Made by a program: the position numbers and the translations under genes. Below are positions 572-40,403 of a DNA stretch of 64,000 nt, in pieces (the first letter of the stretch is position 1; every line of letters starts with the position of its first letter). This stretch comes from a virus: the IMG/VR virus record IMGVR_UViG_3300045988_129366, positions 12,651 to 76,650 of that record; one strand, given 5' to 3'. The notes beneath the pieces were generated by a model. The model ran no database searches, had not been told where the DNA came from, and worked only from the letters and a program-made list of their open reading frames with translations.

Positions 572-1686
572 ATAAAAAACTACAAGACCTTGTGTGGTCT
601 ATCCTCCCGAAAGAGTTCAAGGAGGAAGTGAAGAAACTATATACAGATGCTCTTGATGCGTCAAACTCACCACATGAGCCCGATGACCGCAAATGGGGTA
701 ATTACAGAGTTACACTATTAGAGAAACTTTTCGGCTACCACAACCTCACCTCTGACGGGGAGGGAGAGGAAATGCTGACGGTGAGCCGTAAGGAAGTAAT
801 GCGTAATTTCGCAGAAAAGGTTGCATGGAAAAACCACCATCAATCATCCAAGCATGATAGAGATATGGCGGCTGGATGGTGTAATGCCCTACATTTTCTT
901 TTCGGCCCCAAGTGCCTGCCGGATGAAAACAAAGAATGTAGTAACCCATCAGTTGTGAATTGTAAACATAAACATGGTGATGGCACATGCTCACTTAGTG
1001 GTATGTGCTGCTATAAATCGCCGAAGCCAGCCGAGCCGGAAGAAAAGGATGACTGCAAGAAATTCACCAAAAGGCTTGATGATACCCTTGAAGGAGATAT
1101 CAAAGAGCCTTTTAAGGAGTGGCGTGACAAAAACTCTTCCAATGTTGAGAAATTGGAAAAGAATGGAGAAGTTGAGCCGAAGCCAGCCAAGCCGAAGTTT
1201 AAGGTGGGAGACAAGGTACGGTATAAAGAGTTTGTAGGCACTGTTTATCAGATTGAAGAAACAGACTATGTGATTCGGAAATTAGCAGGCGGAGATTTGA
1301 TTGGATGGTTGAAGGAATCCGACCTCGAACCCTACACCGAGCCGACAAATGAGGATTTCGTAACTCTTGGCGTAGAATCCGCAGAATACTTACGAAAATC
1401 GCTCGAAGAATCCGAATATCGCAATTCTTCGCAAAATACCGCAAATTGCGACAAGCACTTTGACAACATCCTCAAAGACGGCTTCTCAAAAGAGCGGAGA
1501 CTAAATATTGCAAAAGACTTTGCATCTGTTCTTTTGAGTCGACTGAACTACGACCCATTTACGGCTCAGATTAATTGCTGTTGCTCGGGTGGTGCTGCTG
1601 TTAATCCATACCTCAATATAGCAAGAATAGCGTTGAGTGTAGCCGATGCCCTCATAGCAGAATCGGAGAAAGGAGGTGAGAAATAA
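568..1686 (+). CDS. hypothetical Cys-rich protein
   Basis: 372-aa ORF, several Cys clusters (CKHKHGDGTCSLSGMCC; CCCSGG), no recognisable catalytic motif. Confidence 0.5.
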   Translation: MNKKLQDLVWSILPKEFKEEVKKLYTDALDASNSPHEPDDRKWGNYRVTLLEKLFGYHNLTSDGEGEEMLTVSRKEVMRNFAEKVAWKNHHQSSKHDRDMAAGWCNALHFLFGPKCLPDENKECSNPSVVNCKHKHGDGTCSLSGMCCYKSPKPAEPEEKDDCKKFTKRLDDTLEGDIKEPFKEWRDKNSSNVEKLEKNGEVEPKPAKPKFKVGDKVRYKEFVGTVYQIEETDYVIRKLAGGDLIGWLKESDLEPYTEPTNEDFVTLGVESAEYLRKSLEESEYRNSSQNTANCDKHFDNILKDGFSKERRLNIAKDFASVLLSRLNYDPFTAQINCCCSGGAAVNPYLNIARIALSVADALIAESEKGGEK

Positions 1687-2257
1687 AATGGATAACGAAT
1701 GGTATAATATACCGCTTTACCCAAACTATGAGATTTCAAAGAGTGGATATATCCGAAATAGATATACTCAACGGCTCTTGAAAATACATAAATACCGAGA
1801 TGGGTACACATACACTCGATTAAGAAATAGTAACAACAAGCCTAAGAATGTAAAAATACATCGGCTTGTGGCAATGACATTCATTCCAAACCCAGAGAAT
1901 AAATCATACATCGACCATATAAATAGAAAAAGAGATGACAATCGAATAGAAAATCTGCGTTGGTGTACGCCGCATGAAAATAACACATTCCCTGAAACAC
2001 TAAAAGCTCAGAGAATAGCCCATAAGGGCGTACCTCAACCATCATGGGTAGTGGTCGCTAAAACAAAACGGTTTCGCGAGCTTCAAGGGATTAAAATCAA
2101 CAGATATTCTCTCAATGGGATATTAATAAAATCATATTCCGCAATGAATGAAGCTGCGAAAGAGTTTGGCGTAAGATGTCAAGCAATAGCAAATGCTTGT
2201 AGAGGTCTTAGAAAGACTGGCCATGAATATCTCGGCTTTATATGGGAAATCGCATAA
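1676..2257 (+). CDS. HNH homing endonuclease with NUMOD4 motif
   Basis: N-terminal EWYNIPLYPNYEISKSGYIRNR (NUMOD4-like) and HINRKRDDNRIENLRWCTPHEN (HNH_3 signature). Confidence 0.8.
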   Translation: MRNKMDNEWYNIPLYPNYEISKSGYIRNRYTQRLLKIHKYRDGYTYTRLRNSNNKPKNVKIHRLVAMTFIPNPENKSYIDHINRKRDDNRIENLRWCTPHENNTFPETLKAQRIAHKGVPQPSWVVVAKTKRFRELQGIKINRYSLNGILIKSYSAMNEAAKEFGVRCQAIANACRGLRKTGHEYLGFIWEIA

Positions 2258-2279: not shown

Positions 2280-2498
2280 ATGAACTACGACATAACATTC
2301 TGCGAGGGCGAGAACTGCACGCGCAAAGAGGAGTGCCATCGCTACCGCGAACTGCTCCGCTTCCGCGCCGACAAAGACCCGAACAAAAAGACTTACATCT
2401 CAATATGCAAGCCCGACCCGACTAAATGCACTCTGTTTTGGAGAGAAAAAGGAGATTGCCCCTCGCCCGAACTCACCGATAAACTGAAAGAAGAATGA
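2280..2498 (+). CDS. small Cys-rich protein
   Basis: 72-aa ORF with CxxxxC...C...C pattern, coupled to downstream MTase start. Confidence 0.4.
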   Translation: MNYDITFCEGENCTRKEECHRYRELLRFRADKDPNKKTYISICKPDPTKCTLFWREKGDCPSPELTDKLKEE

Positions 2499-3274
2499 AA
2501 ATAAACTACGTTTCCCTTTGCTCCGGCTATGGAGCAGAGTGCATCGCCTTTAAGCGATTAAGACGCGACTATCCGGATTTTGACTTTGATTGTCTCGCTT
2601 GGTCTGAGATTGAGCCAAACGCAATAAAAGCACACGATGCAATTCATCCAGAATATATAGACCGTAACGTACACGATTTAACAAAAGTGGATTGGAAAGT
2701 ATGGCACGAAAGCATAGGCTCACCGCACATCGACCTGCTTTTTGCCTCTACGCCTTGTCAATCCGTTTCAAATGCCGGAAAGAACGAGGGCATGAAGAAA
2801 GGCACGGACGCGGAATCAGCTCTGATATGGGCGACCGAGAGCTGCATACGCGCACTCAACCCCAACATCATAATCTACGAGAACGTGAAGGGAATGGTAA
2901 GCAAGCGCAACAAGCCGGATTTTGACGAGTGGTGTGCGACCCTTGAATCCCTCGGTTACGTTGTTCAGTGGAAGATATTGAATGCGAAAGATTATGGTTG
3001 CGCCCAAAACAGAGAACGTGTTTTTCCGATAGCGATACGCAAGGATTTGCCTATGGTGGGACATTACAATTATCCGCAAGGATTCCCTCTCACCAAATGT
3101 GTCGAGGACTACATGGAGCCTGCGGAGGAAATCGGAGAGGAGTATTTCATATCACAAGACCGCGTGACGAACAAAGTGCTGCCCGACATACTCGACCAGC
3201 CCAACGTCCGCGCAGAAATGGAGAAACTTTATCATGAGGAATGGAAGGAAGCAAATCGCAATAAACCTGCCTAA
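2495..3274 (+). CDS. DNA (cytosine-5)-methyltransferase, 5' segment (motifs I-VIII plus start of target-recognition domain, TRD)
   Basis: LCSGYGAE (motif I), FASTPCQSVS (PCQ, motif IV), IIIYENVKG (ENV, motif VI), QNRERVF (motif VIII); lacks motifs IX/X. Confidence 0.8.
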   Translation: MKINYVSLCSGYGAECIAFKRLRRDYPDFDFDCLAWSEIEPNAIKAHDAIHPEYIDRNVHDLTKVDWKVWHESIGSPHIDLLFASTPCQSVSNAGKNEGMKKGTDAESALIWATESCIRALNPNIIIYENVKGMVSKRNKPDFDEWCATLESLGYVVQWKILNAKDYGCAQNRERVFPIAIRKDLPMVGHYNYPQGFPLTKCVEDYMEPAEEIGEEYFISQDRVTNKVLPDILDQPNVRAEMEKLYHEEWKEANRNKPA

Positions 3275-4598
3275 ATCGGGTGGGGTAAAATATCCCCCAC
3301 AATTCCTGCCCACTATGGATGGGCGGGATGGACTGACTTTCTCAGGCCTCCAGTGTTGCACCTCGCGATAATGATGATAGATAAACCGACACATCCCGGT
3401 AAACCTAACCAACGGCCTTTGCCCCACGCTGATGAGCCGCGCCTTTGAGAAAGCGAGAACTTGCTATTACCTCGGTCAGGGCAAAGTGTGGGCTTATTCG
3501 GCAATACTTGTGATAGATGATACCGAAAGTGATAAAAGTCGCCGACCTTTGGCGCGGCAAAATCGTTGACTCGCCGCAAGTCGCGAGGGTCTTTTGGAGC
3601 AAGGGAATATCTCCCTCAATCCTCTCCGACCAAGGCGGCGGTGGCAGACAGATAAAGTTTTTAGTAATCAATGACAAAACAACTCGCAATCAACCTCTAT
3701 AATGGAGTGTGCTGCACGCTCCACGCACGTTCAGGAGTACATTCGCCATACAACATCATGGATTGCCCCCCCCAGATTTCGTCAGACGGCGTTTGTAATA
3801 ATCGAAAATGAAAACAAAAAGAACGAAACTCCGCTACACCCTCGGACGCACCAACCACGGCGGCGAGGACGATAAATTCGGCACGAGCAAATTCCATGTC
3901 AACCCATATTTTGCCACCGTCACCGCGATACAGATGTCAAACAGAAGACAATGGATAGTAGAAATTACCCCCGATAATAGTTGCGACTGTCAAAGACCGC
4001 AATCCAAGTTATAACACAAAGATATGCCAGACGATAAGAAGCAACTCGCACGGGGCGATACCTCATTTCATATGGATAGAGCCGAAGCGATAAAGTTCAA
4101 GCTGATGCCGGACGGACACATTCGCGGAGTGCAGACGCAACGCCCCGACCTCGCGAGTGCCGCCGAGTGGATGATTTACTTCACGAACGTGTGCGCCCCG
4201 ACAATATCGGTCGCCCACGTTCCCAAACTTCTGATAACGGATGAAGCAATTCTTGAAAGTCTTATGCGTAGCGTCAAGAGGCAGAGGTGACAACAACGCC
4301 CAGCACTTCGAGGCGCGGACAGACGGATGCACCTCGACCTTAACAAGCGTGACCAAAGACAACCTTATACTCACGATATGCCGAAAGACTACAACGCGCC
4401 ATACTCCACGCCCTACTACGATGAGTTGAAGCATAACGGCATTCGCCTGCCATGCTTCCTCACGCACATCCGCACGGATGCGGCGAGGATAGAGAGGCCC
4501 AAGGACGCGAGGATGTTCCGTATGATGTTCCTGACTCCGAGAACTGACGGCTGCTGTGGAACTTTAGACACCCGGTCAATGAGCAATCTGATAATGGA
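3275..4598 (+). other. ~1.3-kb ORF-poor insertion separating the two halves of the C5-MTase; candidate self-splicing intron or other intervening element
   Basis: No convincing ORF; GC-rich structured stretches; flanked by MTase exon-like segments in different frames. Confidence 0.35.
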
Positions 4599-5135
4599 AT
4601 GGAGAAAAGATACATAGTCGCCAAGCGCAGAAGCGAGCAGGGCAAGCTGATTCGTCGACAATATAAAAACGACATTGGAGTGCCGTATCAACTTTGCAAA
4701 GGCTACTCTCTGATGCTTGATGGCTATTCAAACACGATTACTACGTTCACAACCGATAATTGGATTTTAGAACTTAAAGACAATGACAATATGGATAACT
4801 TAGTTTACCACCCTCACCCTACAAAGGAGCAGCTGCTCGAATACTTCTCGCAAAGTATTAGGGTGCGCAAGATGACCCCACGCGAGGCGTTCAGACTTAT
4901 GGATGTTGACGACGCGGACATTGACAAGATAATGAACGCAAAGGAAACGGTGGTGCTCAAAAACGGCACCACAAAGACACATAAGGCGATAAGCAAGACT
5001 GCTTGTTATAAACTTGCAGGTAATTCTATCGTGGTAGCCTGTCTCTACCACATCTTCCGCACGATGTTTATTCCCAATCAGCCTGAGAACCAAATCACAA
5101 AACCAATCCAACAATCATTATTCGATATATTATGA
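4599..5135 (+). CDS. DNA (cytosine-5)-methyltransferase, 3' segment (TRD, motifs IX and X)
   Basis: GYSNTITTF (TRD T-L-T-A like), RKMTPREAFRLMDVDD (motif IX), YKLAGNSIVV (motif X GNS-V). Confidence 0.75.
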   Translation: MEKRYIVAKRRSEQGKLIRRQYKNDIGVPYQLCKGYSLMLDGYSNTITTFTTDNWILELKDNDNMDNLVYHPHPTKEQLLEYFSQSIRVRKMTPREAFRLMDVDDADIDKIMNAKETVVLKNGTTKTHKAISKTACYKLAGNSIVVACLYHIFRTMFIPNQPENQITKPIQQSLFDIL

Positions 5136-5538: not shown

Positions 5539-5739
5539 TTATAGTCGTTCCCGTTCTAACGCCTCGTGGAGTCCCGCCGGATTCAGCCCGAAGCACCGCA
5601 CAAAGCGGTCAAGTGCTTTGCGCCTGTCTTGCGGGATAAGGGCATAGAGGGAATTGAGCGGGGTATTACTCTCCAGGGCTCTGCGGACATCCGGAGCTTT
5701 CATGCCGGATGCACGGCGTAATTTTCTGCTTTGTGACAT
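5539..5739 (-). CDS. hypothetical protein
   Basis: 66-aa basic ORF at end of leftward operon. Confidence 0.35.
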   Translation of the reverse strand: MSQSRKLRRASGMKAPDVRRALESNTPLNSLYALIPQDRRKALDRFVRCFGLNPAGLHEALERERL

Positions 5740-40320: not shown

Positions 40321-40331
40321 AATTCTATTTG

Positions 40332-40403
40332 TGGCGCGGGACGGACTCGAACCGCCGACCTTTGGGATATGAACCCAACGAGCTACCGCTGCTCTACCGC
40401 GCT
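40332..40403 (-). tRNA. tRNA-Met (anticodon CAT), initiator-like
   Basis: Hand-folded cloverleaf: D-arm GAGC/AGCGGTA/GCTC, anticodon arm TTGGG-TTCATAT-CCCAA (three G-C pairs next to loop), T-arm GGCGG-TTCGAGT-CCGTC, acceptor with 1:72 A-C mismatch, A73, no encoded CCA. Confidence 0.7.

What the first reader, a model, noticed from the sequence alone, without database searches (positions are those of the whole stretch)
2495..5135. C5 cytosine methyltransferase split by ~1.3 kb of ORF-less DNA: candidate self-splicing intron
Motifs I, IV (PCQ), VI (ENV) and VIII (QNRERVF) sit in ORF 2495..3274. The TRD signature (GYSNTITTF), motif IX (RKMTPREAFRLM) and motif X (YKLAGNSIVV) sit in ORF 4599..5135. 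The TRD spans the junction. The two halves are in different reading frames, which argues against an intein. The intervening 3275..4598 has no convincing ORF and contains GC-rich structured stretches. The possibilities are a group I or II intron, a split two-subunit MTase with an unusually long spacer, or a gene killed by insertion. Some introns are known in phage genes but the intron type cannot be assigned here.
Basis: partly seen in the sequence, partly recalled or inferred. Interest (0 to 1): 0.6.

Follow-up and report, generated by a model that had tools for sequence, protein, structure and literature searches.

The report
Split methyltransferase with recognition-module gene array
The 1.3 kb between the two halves of this phage DNA-methylase gene is not an intron but a row of about eight tiny overlapping genes, each encoding one DNA-recognition module, which suggests an enzyme built from one catalytic part plus interchangeable recognition parts that could shield the phage from many restriction enzymes.

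Summary
The two methyltransferase halves are real: ORF 2495..3274 carries motifs I-VIII and ORF 4599..5135 carries one recognition domain (TRD) plus motifs IX-X. The DNA between them is not ORF-less and not an intron. There is no Rfam intron match and no excess RNA structure. The stretch holds eight further TRD-like modules on the + strand, in shifting frames, most starting at their own ATG at the end of the preceding module. Homologous arrays occur in many Bacteroidales-associated phage contigs. Their modules are under purifying selection in their own frames (dN/dS 0.09-0.28), as strong as in the catalytic and C-terminal ORFs. Two modules have database relatives that are almost all stand-alone proteins of 50-104 aa. 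In a 93%-identical relative (L127) all nine modules are intact separate ORFs. The window copy has three switched off: T1 by a frameshift in a G run, T2 by ATG>ATA, and T4 by poly-C C8 instead of C7. Other phages encode motifs IX-X, motifs I-VIII and TRD-only proteins as three separate genes. Best reading (confidence 0.55): a split, multispecific C5 methyltransferase whose TRDs are separately translated specificity subunits. Trans-assembly is inferred, not shown.

The parts
2495..3274 (+). alpha: catalytic subunit with motifs I-VIII and no TRD. It ends 9 residues after the conserved KLYHEEW.
   Evidence: PF00145 positions 2-216, E=4e-47. Residues 76-223 align to M.HhaI 69-212. The ORF ends at the same point in all relatives examined.
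3092..3247 (+). alpha C-terminal tail LTKCVEDY..YHEEW (52 aa), the most constrained piece of the locus. Proposed docking surface for the modules (inference).
   Evidence: The tail is 81-98% aa identical to relatives whose catalytic part is only 40-48% identical. pN is 0.008-0.13 against pS 0.36-0.80.
3234..3385 (+). T1 module, inactivated. The start ATG 3234 (MRNGRKQIAINLPKSGG, frame 0) overlaps the end of alpha. The body GKISPTIPAHYGW..AIMMID continues in frame 2 after a 1-nt frameshift in the G run 3282-3285.
   Evidence: Three-frame translation. The intact one-frame counterpart is L127 3219-3425, MRNGKKQIGFNK..GILVIDE.
3381..3569 (+). T2 module (..HIPVNLTNGLCPTLMSRAFEKAR..AILVIDD), with its start codon lost (ATA at 3381 where relatives have ATG).
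   Evidence: L127 and L128 have ATG at the homologous position. dN/dS is 0.21 against L092.
3517..3702 (+). T3 mini-ORF, 61 aa, intact (MIPKVIKVADL..ARVFWSKGISPSILSDQGGGGRQIKFLVIND).
   Evidence: All five database relatives are stand-alone ORFs of 58-92 aa starting at the same Met. The same TRD type lies between motifs VIII and IX in the single-chain MTase P0040. dN/dS is 0.28 against L092.
3671..3875 (+). T4 module, frameshifted. ATG 3671 opens frame 2, which ends at 3811. The closing half PPRFRQTAFVIIENE is in frame 0 and runs to 3875.
   Evidence: It is intact as one 67-aa ORF in L127.
3766..3773 (+). Poly-C tract C8 inside T4, the longest homopolymer in the 64-kb window. Candidate on/off switch for T4.
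   Evidence: L127 has C7 (T4 in frame). The window, L128 and L129 have C8 (out of frame). The flanks are identical. The tract is C6 (out of frame) in L002, C7 in L001, and C8 and C9 (in frame) in L125 and L115.
3808..4014 (+). T5 mini-ORF, 68 aa, intact (MKTKRTKLRYTLGRTNH..TAIQMSNRRQWIVEIT). Its ATG overlaps the stop of truncated T4 (ATGA).
   Evidence: dN/dS is 0.14 against L001.
3951..3965 (+). Remnant (MDSRN) of the start of a further module (MDSRNKVIKLGNL.. type) that is present in L001, L002, L093 and L089 but deleted here.
4024..4290 (+). T6 mini-ORF, 88 aa, intact (..MDRAEAIKFKLMPDGHIRG..NVCAPTISVAHVPKLLITDE).
   Evidence: There are 53 clusters of relatives. All but one are proteins of 50-104 aa (one is 149 aa), and none has a precomputed PF00145 or other Pfam hit. 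JGI called it as a gene. dN/dS is 0.18 against L002.
4241..4429 (+). T7 mini-ORF, 62 aa, intact (MKQFLKVLCVASRGRGDNNAQHFEARTDGCTSTLTSVTKDNLIL).
   Evidence: The same module is fused in frame to motifs IX-X in P0001, L002 and L115.
4378..4617 (+). T8 mini-ORF, 79 aa from ATG 4378 (MPKDYNAPYSTPYY..TPRTDGCCGTLDTRSMSNLIME). The longest ORF begins at 4327.
   Evidence: dN/dS is 0.10 against L002. It is fused in frame to the next module in P0001, L089 and L093.
4599..5135 (+). beta: T9 (..LMLDGYSNTITTFTTDNWILE) plus motif IX (RKMTPREAFRLM, from 4866) and motif X (YKLAGNSIVV). A conserved Met at 4791 precedes the constant part.

Best explanation
This is a split, multispecific phage C5 cytosine methyltransferase. 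It is encoded by about ten consecutive, overlapping + strand genes.

The parts:
- alpha (2495..3274) supplies the AdoMet-binding and catalytic core, motifs I-VIII.
- The last ORF (4599..5135) supplies one recognition domain plus motifs IX-X.
- The eight modules in between each encode one target-recognition domain of 45-90 aa.

How it would work: each module is translated from its own ATG. That ATG usually lies in the +1 frame inside the N/D/Y-D/E codon pair (NAT GAN) that ends the previous module, so the frames step along the array. The free TRD polypeptides are proposed to dock between alpha and the IX-X part. That is the gap occupied by residues ~213-270 in M.HhaI. The hyper-conserved alpha tail is the likely docking site. 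Each TRD would add one methylation specificity, so the phage DNA is protected against several host restriction systems.

Because the modules are independent genes, single modules can be lost, swapped or switched off without killing the enzyme. In this window T1, T2 and T4 are off. T4 is off through a C7/C8 tract that looks like a contingency switch.

Shown: the anatomy, the homology to TRDs, purifying selection on the modules, conserved mini-ORF boundaries, and the existence of TRD-only, alpha-only and IX-X-only genes in other phages.

Inferred: translation of each mini-ORF, assembly in trans, and the specificities.
For: 1. The modules are TRDs. A conceptual in-frame translation of 3246-4790 hits the region between motifs VIII and IX of single-chain multispecific MTases (P0002-P0028, 431-507 aa). 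It also hits beta-type proteins with 3 or ~9 in-frame TRDs (P0001, P0029). A T3 profile finds the same TRD type between QNRERVF and RKLTPKE in P0040.

2. Purifying selection acts in the module frames. Array dN/dS is 0.09-0.28 in 10 locus pairs with unsaturated synonymous divergence; synonymous sites were saturated in the other 7 of 17 pairs. The nonsynonymous/synonymous contrast is significant in all 17 pairs (Fisher p 6e-6 to 4e-46). This is the same range as alpha (0.05-0.18) and beta (0.10-0.17). Off-frame readings of the same DNA mostly give about 1 or more (about 0.7 to 7). Against the 93%-identical L127, pN/pS is 0.31 (p=8e-7).

3. The mini-ORF boundaries are conserved. T3 relatives are stand-alone proteins of 58, 59, 59, 61 and 92 aa. 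The T6 search returned 53 clusters; all but one are 50-104 aa (one is 149 aa) and none has a precomputed Pfam hit. Further stand-alone TRD proteins of 53-58 aa and two-TRD proteins of 104-130 aa appear among the 50%-identity representatives.

4. The intact state is separate ORFs, not one ORF. In L127 all nine modules are complete ATG ORFs in frames 0,1,2,0,1,2,0,2,1. In L099 about a dozen mini-ORFs follow alpha. Seven junctions overlap by exactly 14 nt (ATGAAAC...stop), and stops fall 1-3 codons after the closing YE(T/S).

5. Some loci cannot work without a trans TRD. In L102 and L107, a 72-aa ORF equals PF00145 positions 271-322, a 247-aa ORF equals positions 6-219, and a 127-aa ORF holds two TRDs only. 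In L106 the TRD-only ORF is separated from alpha by an unrelated gene, and its dN/dS is 0.11. The last ORF of L099 has motifs IX-X but no recognisable TRD.

6. Sizes fit. Alpha aligns to M.HhaI 69-212 and beta to 270-314. The gap is ~57 aa.

7. The alpha tail is more conserved than the catalytic core.

8. There is precedent. M.AquI and M.EcoHK31I work as two polypeptides, and fragments of monomeric C5 MTases complement each other (PMC3404938). Bacillus phages array several TRDs in one polypeptide (PMC12707154).
Against: - No experiment or expression data shows that the mini-ORFs are translated or that a free TRD can assemble. Three-piece C5 MTases were not found in the literature searched.
- Beta carries its own covalently linked TRD, which should out-compete free TRDs.
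- AlphaFold2 gives no confident fold for isolated T3: pLDDT 48 with a 14-row alignment.
- One module type (..GCLTSHYHKIS..AFIVI, in L090-L094 and L124) is under selection but has no ATG in any locus. Some recoding or another route of expression must therefore exist.
- Several modules carry internal frameshifts, mostly at G or C runs: window T1 and T4, L002 T4, L001 T8, L115 T3. Part of every array is decaying or switching.
- Choosing blastp-matched frames biases dN/dS downward.
- T6 shows pN/pS of about 1-2 over the short distance to L127 and L128.
- This phage shows no Shine-Dalgarno sites, so start sites cannot be checked by motif.
Confidence: 0.55

Rival explanations
1. Reservoir of mostly silent TRD cassettes. 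Only alpha and the last ORF make the enzyme, as an M.AquI-like two-subunit MTase with one specificity. The upstream modules are brought into the expressed ORF now and then by 1-nt slips, deletions or recombination between phages. Selection then acts on them intermittently.
For: - Relatives differ in which modules are fused in frame to motifs IX-X: T8+T9 in L089 and L093, T7+T9 in L002, T8+T9+T7 in P0001, T7 in L115.
- One added base in the A run at 4612-4615 would fuse T8 to beta.
- The poly-C tract differs as C7 or C8 among near-identical relatives, and a poly-G tract as G8 or G9.
- Module content and order vary by indels.
Against: - Selection on mid-array modules is as strong as on alpha and beta. 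One example is dN/dS 0.02 over 54 codons for L001 7661 against L002 4000.
- The conserved ATGs and close-set stops, and the exact 14-nt overlaps in L099, are not needed by silent cassettes.
- L099 and L102 have no TRD at the supposed expression site.
- Reaching an upstream module would need several successive slips.
Confidence: 0.17
2. One long multi-TRD polypeptide, or a nested set of them, is made by programmed recoding at the junctions. The mechanisms would be ribosomal frameshifting, transcriptional slippage or stop-adjacent slips.
For: - Some junctions would join seamlessly after a slip. ATA AAG TGA with a -1 slip gives ..WIAEIK-VIKLGNL (L001, L002, L093). TTT TGA or TTT TAA with a +1 slip works in two L099 junctions.
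- One module type has no ATG but is under selection. It follows a CCC-rich site.
- C and G runs occur inside modules.
Against: - No common slippery motif exists. Most junctions (AAT GAC, GAT GAA, TAT GAA ACG) allow no tRNA re-pairing.
- Eight to thirteen successive shifts would leave almost no full-length product.
- The conserved ATG at module starts is unexplained by this model.
- The upstream frames usually run 8-20 codons past the next ATG in the window family.
Confidence: 0.1
3. Decaying pseudogene. A once single-chain multispecific MTase is broken by many frameshifts, and the locus is non-functional junk between two remnants.
For: - In-frame multi-TRD relatives exist.
- Three window modules are clearly damaged.
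- L094 even has a frameshift in alpha before the PCQ motif.
Against: - The modules are under strong purifying selection.
- Shared frame relations are old. The T2 to T3 relation is shared by the window and L092. The T5 to next-module relation is shared by L001, L002, L093 and L089.
- Only one in-frame nonsense codon was seen inside a module (a TAG in L115 T5), despite synonymous divergence of 0.5-0.8.
- The same architecture occurs in at least four divergent phage lineages.
Confidence: 0.05
4. Self-splicing intron (group I or II), or an intein, interrupting a single MTase gene.
For: - Mobile elements do target this gene family. There is an HNH homing endonuclease next to alpha (1676..2257) and another inside the array of L092.
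- There is an intein at PC|Q of alpha in L125.
Against: - No Rfam intron match, even at E<=10.
- No excess RNA folding.
- The interval is coding DNA homologous to TRDs.
- Alpha ends at a conserved stop in all relatives examined.
- The window has no Hint/intein match in these ORFs.
Confidence: 0.02

Closest known systems
Multispecific C5 methyltransferases of Bacillus temperate phages (M.SPRI, M.Phi3TI, M.Rho11sI, M.H2I)
   Same: They are phage-encoded. Several short TRDs lie in tandem between motifs VIII and IX, and each gives one specificity. The purpose is protection against many host restriction systems (PMC12707154; the Trautner 1996 reference is cited there). Gut-phage relatives with 3-5 in-frame TRDs share module types with this window.
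   Different: In those enzymes all TRDs and both conserved halves are one polypeptide. Here the catalytic half, most TRDs and the IX-X part are separate, overlapping ORFs in shifting frames.
M.AquI (two-subunit C5 MTase)
   Same: The larger subunit carries motifs I-VIII. The smaller one carries the distal variable region plus motifs IX-X (PMC3404938). This equals alpha plus the last ORF here.
   Different: M.AquI has one specificity and no extra TRD genes. Its break lies inside the single variable region.
M.EcoHK31I (alpha/beta C5 MTase)
   Same: A small polypeptide supplies a missing piece of the small domain (motif IX) in trans (PMC3404938). From my own recollection, not checked here, its beta gene overlaps alpha in another reading frame.
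   Different: The trans-acting piece is motif IX, not a TRD. There are two components only, and one specificity.
Specificity (S) subunits of Type I restriction-modification systems
   Same: In logic only: a constant catalytic methylase plus exchangeable specificity polypeptides, with families defined by compatible docking surfaces (PMC12707154).
   Different: The fold and chemistry are unrelated (N6-adenine; TRD-CR-TRD-CR architecture). One S subunit is used per complex. These are not arrays of 50-aa proteins.
Phase-variable methyltransferases with simple-sequence tracts (phasevarions)
   Same: A homopolymer inside the coding sequence has a length that sets the frame. It is C7 or C8 between near-identical relatives.
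   Different: Here the tract would switch one recognition module of a phage enzyme, not the whole enzyme of a bacterium. Reversible switching within a population has not been shown.

Membership tests
C5 cytosine DNA methyltransferase (PF00145) | Motifs I (FxGxG-like), IV (PCQ), VI (ENV) and VIII (QxRxR) in the N-terminal part | tested here: met
   Alpha matches PF00145 at E=4e-47, profile positions 2-216. LCSGYG, PCQ, ENV and QNRERVF are visible. It aligns to M.HhaI 69-212.
C5 cytosine DNA methyltransferase (PF00145) | Motifs IX (RxxTxRE) and X (GNS) in the C-terminal part | tested here: met
   RKMTPREAFRLM and YKLAGNSIVV are in ORF 4599..5135. The Pfam match is 18.9 bits at profile positions 269-322, below the 22-bit cut-off. 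PHROG 116 matches at E=5e-11, and the ORF aligns to M.HhaI 270-314.
C5 cytosine DNA methyltransferase (PF00145) | Methyl transfer to cytosine C5 at defined sites | not testable with these tools
   It needs expression plus bisulfite, EM-seq or RIMS-seq.
Multispecific phage C5 MTase (SPR type) | Several non-overlapping TRDs in tandem between motifs VIII and IX | tested here: met
   There are nine TRD-like modules between QNRERVF and RKMTPRE. They are homologous to the variable regions of P0002-P0029 and P0040.
Multispecific phage C5 MTase (SPR type) | All TRDs and motifs I-X in one polypeptide | tested here: not met
   There are ten separate ORFs or frames here, and nine intact separate module ORFs plus alpha in L127.
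Two-subunit C5 MTase (M.AquI type) | Separate genes for motifs I-VIII and for TRD+IX-X | tested here: met
   Alpha is 2495..3274 and beta is 4599..5135. The alpha stop is conserved in all relatives examined.
Two-subunit C5 MTase (M.AquI type) | Activity requires both polypeptides and only those | not testable with these tools
   Biochemistry is needed. The extra TRD genes are not part of the M.AquI scheme.
Group I / group II self-splicing intron | Conserved ribozyme core detectable by covariance models | tested here: not met
   Rfam 15 gave only a tRNA at gathering thresholds over the whole window. At E<=10 over 3000-4900 it gave only two chance-level hits, both to unrelated families.
Group I / group II self-splicing intron | The intervening sequence is non-coding for the host protein, and the exons join in frame | tested here: not met
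   The interval encodes TRD modules with dN/dS 0.09-0.28. RNA folding is ordinary.
Intein | In-frame Hint domain within the host ORF | tested here: not met
   No Hint or intein hit occurs in the window ORFs, and the halves are in different frames. A relative (L125) does have one, but in alpha at PC|Q.
Phase-variable (contingency) locus | A simple-sequence tract in the coding region whose length differs between close relatives and sets the frame | tested here: met
   C8 at 3766-3773 is out of frame. L127 has C7 in frame with identical flanks. The tract ranges from C6 to C9 in other relatives.
Phase-variable (contingency) locus | Reversible length variation within one population | not testable with these tools
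   It needs read-level data. Two records with the exact window sequence both show C8.

The most novel reading that the evidence does not exclude
A C5 cytosine methyltransferase that works like a Type I system in miniature. One catalytic subunit and one IX-X subunit are programmed by a battery of free-standing 45-90-aa TRD proteins. These are encoded as a cassette array with built-in +1 overlapping starts. Some cassettes are switched by homopolymer tracts. The design recurs in Bacteroidales phages and, as three dispersed genes, in jumbo phages.
Probability: 0.5. Interest if true: 0.85.

Novelty: new variant of a known kind. Interest (0 to 1): 0.72.

Why it matters
Split C5 methyltransferases and multispecific phage methyltransferases are each textbook cases. 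A C5 enzyme whose recognition domains are separate, exchangeable mini-proteins did not turn up in the literature I could search.

If this holds, three things follow:
- It would show that the TRD is an autonomous, trans-acting specificity unit.
- It would explain how gut phages retune anti-restriction protection module by module, through loss, gain, a poly-C switch or cassette exchange.
- It would offer a natural plug-in scaffold for designing methyltransferases with chosen specificities.

It also matters for annotation. Gene callers report these loci as a truncated methylase plus hypothetical proteins, or skip the mini-ORFs altogether.

Tried and rejected
- **Intron.** Rfam gave nothing at gathering thresholds or at E<=10. 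MFE z-scores were ordinary.
- **Stop-codon recoding.** The window's only tRNA is tRNA-Met. Long ORFs use all three stop codons. The frame changes cannot be explained by readthrough. One of the two in-frame TAGs in L115 follows a G-run frameshift. The other is a true nonsense codon.
- **Sequencing error.** The region is identical in two public records. The same architecture appears in many independent assemblies. Long genes elsewhere in the window are intact.
- **Recombination repeats.** There are no long direct or inverted repeats at the module borders. Only 17-20-nt similarity exists between KQIAINL-type starts, and in the wrong register to fuse with alpha.
- **A neighbouring recombinase.** A serine recombinase lies next to the L002 locus only, not in the window.
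- **Known phages.** The only hit is a 69%-identity match to the N-terminal half of a Dulem virus 40 methylase.
- **Structure of isolated T3.** AlphaFold2 gave pLDDT 48, which is uninformative. I did not submit a chimeric alpha-TRD-IX/X construct, because the tool states that it accepts only window or search-returned sequences.
- **Automatic scoring of 'Met at module start'.** The conserved blocks run into the overlapping upstream module, so the automatic scoring was unreliable. I used explicit ORF tables instead.
- **P0035 and P0037.** These 1866-2762-aa proteins with many 'TRD' matches are low-complexity repeat artefacts.
- **Relatives of L099.** A scan for close relatives returned only L099 itself.


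Full report
**1. What is there**

The + strand ORF 2495..3274 (259 aa) is the N-terminal two thirds of a C5 cytosine methyltransferase. It matches PF00145 positions 2-216 of 324 at E=4e-47. Its residues 76-223 align to M.HhaI 69-212.

ORF 4599..5135 (178 aa) carries one recognition domain (LMLDGYSNTITTFTTDNWILE). It also carries motif IX (RKMTPREAFRLM) and motif X (YKLAGNSIVV). These align to M.HhaI 270-314 and to PF00145 positions 269-322.

The two ORFs are in different frames.

**2. The interval is not an intron and not ORF-less**

- Rfam 15 finds only a tRNA in the whole window. Nothing intron-like appears at E<=10 in 3000-4900.
- MFE z-scores of 150-nt windows are the same in the interval (mean -0.33) as in the two flanking ORFs (-0.20).
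- A three-frame translation shows eight further modules with the hallmarks of C5-methyltransferase target-recognition domains. Each has an opening strand (KQIAINL or KVIKVADL), a loop with C/S-P/T-T-L/I and often GGG, and a closing hydrophobic strand ending in D, E or N.

I call them T1-T8. T9 is the module in the last ORF. They lie head to tail on the + strand in frames 0/2, 0, 1, 2/0, 1, 1, 2 and 1, followed by T9 in frame 0.

**3. The modules are TRDs**

A conceptual in-frame translation of the array hits two kinds of protein:
- The region between motifs VIII and IX of single-chain multispecific methyltransferases of 431-507 aa (P0002-P0028). These differ from one another by whole-module indels.
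- C-terminal subunits with 3 or ~9 in-frame TRDs followed by motifs IX-X (P0001 and P0029).

A profile of T3 finds the same TRD type between QNRERVF and RKLTPKE in P0040. The piece of M.HhaI not covered by the two window ORFs is ~57 residues, about the size of one module.

**4. The architecture is conserved, not an accident of this contig**

The 2641-nt region is identical in two public records. Other long genes in the window are intact.

Arrays of the same kind follow a truncated alpha gene in many phage or Bacteroidales/Muribaculaceae-binned contigs:
- L001, L002, L089-L094, L115-L117, L124, L125 and L127-L129.
- More distant lineages L043, L074, L080, L059 and L099.

Most other relatives of alpha are compact single-ORF enzymes of 305-314 aa. 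In every array locus examined, alpha stops just after the motif KLYHEEW.

**5. The modules are under purifying selection in their own frames**

| Comparison | Result |
|---|---|
| Array modules, 10 pairs with unsaturated synonymous divergence | dN/dS 0.09-0.28 |
| Nonsynonymous vs synonymous contrast, all 17 pairs | Fisher p 6e-6 to 4e-46 |
| alpha, same pairs | dN/dS 0.05-0.18 |
| Last ORF (beta), same pairs | dN/dS 0.10-0.17 |
| Mid-array module, L001 7661 vs L002 4000 (54 codons) | pN 0.016, pS 0.47 |
| Off-frame readings of the same DNA | mostly about 1 or more (about 0.7 to 7) |
| Window vs L127 (93% identical), module bodies | pN/pS 0.31, p=8e-7 |

Frame relations are old. The overlapping T2 to T3 step is shared by the window and L092. 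The ..ETWIAEIK*/MDSRNKVIK overlap is shared by L001, L002, L093 and L089.

Choosing the best-matching frame biases these ratios downward, but not by an order of magnitude.

**6. The modules look like separate genes**

- In L127 all nine modules are complete ATG ORFs of 56-88 aa, and the last is the 188-aa ORF with motifs IX-X. Their frames are 0,1,2,0,1,2,0,2,1.
- The next ATG typically sits in the +1 frame within the N/D/Y-D/E codon pair (NAT GAN) that ends the previous module. This explains the stepwise frames.
- In L099 about a dozen mini-ORFs follow alpha. Seven junctions overlap by exactly 14 nt (ATGAAAC...stop). Stops fall 1-3 codons after the closing YE(T/S). The last ORF has motifs IX-X but no recognisable TRD.
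- All five relatives of T3 are stand-alone proteins of 58-92 aa beginning at the same Met.
- The T6 search returned 53 clusters. All but one are proteins of 50-104 aa (one is 149 aa). None has a precomputed Pfam hit, so none looks like a full methyltransferase.
- Further TRD-only proteins of 53-58 aa and two-TRD proteins of 104-130 aa turn up among the 50%-identity representatives.

**7. An independent case for trans-acting TRDs**

In jumbo-phage contigs L102 and L107, three adjacent, overlapping genes encode the parts separately:
- Motifs IX-X only: 72 aa, PF00145 positions 271-322.
- Motifs I-VIII only: 247 aa, positions 6-219.
- Two TRDs only: 127 aa, no Pfam hit.

In L106 the TRD-only gene is separated from alpha by an unrelated ORF. 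All three parts are under selection, with dN/dS of 0.22, 0.13 and 0.11. Such a locus can only make an enzyme if the TRD protein joins in trans. The alternative is that it uses one of the extra TRD+IX-X genes found nearby.

**8. The alpha tail**

The last 52 residues of alpha before the stop (LTKCVEDY..YHEEW, 3092-3247) are 81-98% identical to relatives whose catalytic part is only 40-48% identical. Synonymous divergence there is 0.36-0.80. This is the most constrained element of the locus. I infer that it is the surface many different modules must fit.

**9. State of this particular copy**

Compared with L127, three window modules are off.
- T1 has a 1-nt frameshift in the G run at 3282-3285.
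- T2 has ATA in place of its ATG at 3381.
- T4 is frameshifted at a poly-C tract (3766-3773, C8). This is the longest homopolymer in the window.

L127 has C7 at that tract with identical flanks. L128 and L129 have C8. More distant relatives have C6 (out of frame) and C7-C9 (in frame). L043 and L080 differ from L074 by G8 against G9 at the head of their arrays.

T3, T5, T6, T7, T8 and T9 look intact.

**10. Mechanism proposed**

Alpha provides catalysis. The last ORF provides motifs IX-X and one TRD. The mini-ORFs provide further TRDs as separate polypeptides that dock between them. Each adds a specificity, as the tandem TRDs of Bacillus phage enzymes do within one chain (PMC12707154).

Natural two-polypeptide C5 enzymes (M.AquI and M.EcoHK31I) and fragment complementation show that the fold tolerates being split (PMC3404938).

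Translation of each mini-ORF, assembly and the specificities are all inferred.

**11. Points against, or unexplained**

- No expression or biochemical evidence exists.
- The covalent TRD in the last ORF should compete with free TRDs.
- AlphaFold2 gives no confident fold for isolated T3 (pLDDT 48).
- One module type (..GCLTSHYHKIS..AFIVI) has no ATG in any locus, yet dN/dS is ~0.2.
- Internal frameshifts are frequent.
- T6 shows no constraint over the short distance to L127.

The rivals are silent cassettes reactivated by slips or recombination, programmed recoding, and plain decay. They are weighed in the rival section. None explains the conserved starts and stops together with the strong selection as well as independent translation does.

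**12. Literature**

Searches found the classical multispecific and two-subunit enzymes, but nothing describing TRD-only genes or shifted-frame TRD arrays. The library is incomplete, so this is absence of evidence only.

Noticed in passing
window 1676..2257 (+); L124 2241-2837; L092 5256-5532: An HNH/NUMOD homing-endonuclease gene sits directly upstream of alpha in the window and in L124. A similar one lies inside the TRD array of L092. Free-standing homing endonucleases seem to travel with this locus.
   Followed up: partly
L125 1558-3423: A close relative of the window's alpha (Logan SRR31563410) is 621 aa long because an intein (Hint domain) is inserted exactly at the catalytic PC|Q motif.
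   Followed up: partly
L090 4517-4660, L091 3099-3278, L092 4927-5061, L093 4574-4693, L094 4859-5020, L124 4309-4506: A module (..G(C/V)(L/K)T(S/I)(H/T)(Y/A)H(K/Y)KIS.RNIF.GF.E.A.IVI) always follows the T4-type module in another frame. It has no ATG in any locus, yet shows dN/dS of ~0.2. It might be reached by a frameshift at the CCC-rich PP(P) site of T4.
   Followed up: partly
L043 ~5718-5725, L080 ~5715-5722, L074 ~5715-5723: A poly-G tract at the head of the array is G8 in L043 and L080 and G9 in L074. This changes which of two overlapping TRD readings is in frame. Alpha ends with a conserved TGA immediately before it.
   Followed up: partly
L115 4671 and 4821: This Muribaculaceae-binned relative has two in-frame TAG codons inside modules. 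One is a by-product of a G-run frameshift. The other is a true nonsense codon in T5. If read through, it would give a T5-T7-IX-X fusion that otherwise lacks a start codon.
   Followed up: partly
L094 3420-4189: The alpha gene itself is frameshifted just before the PCQ motif, so this copy looks dead or mis-assembled.
   Followed up: no
L002 5400-6185 (-): A serine recombinase (resolvase/invertase-like) gene lies immediately downstream of the MTase locus in this relative only.
   Followed up: no
L102/L107 2117-2701 and 3533-3871; L106, L108, L110: Jumbo-phage contigs (155-411 kb) carry two further TRD+IX-X genes a few kb from the IX-X / alpha / TRD-only trio. These are interspersed with unrelated genes, so there are several alternative C-terminal subunits for one catalytic subunit.
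   Followed up: partly
window 40331..40403 (-): A single tRNA-Met (CAT) gene is the only Rfam or ARAGORN hit in the window.
   Followed up: no
window, all long ORFs: No Shine-Dalgarno-like motif lies upstream of genes, and the leaders are A-rich. Related loci sit in Muribaculaceae/Bacteroidales MAGs, and one close relative lies on a 636-kb scaffold. This suggests a Bacteroidales host and possibly a prophage state.
   Followed up: partly
window 3697..3897 (-) and 4063..4467 (-): Minus-strand ORFs of 66 and 134 aa overlap the array. JGI called the first as a gene. They are antisense to modules under selection in + frames and are probably spurious.
   Followed up: no
P0035, P0037: Database 'proteins' of 2762 and 1866 aa match the T3 profile 27 and 13 times. 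They are translations of a simple tandem repeat (..ISPSTLYGEEGGARHSYQFF..), not TRD arrays.
   Followed up: yes
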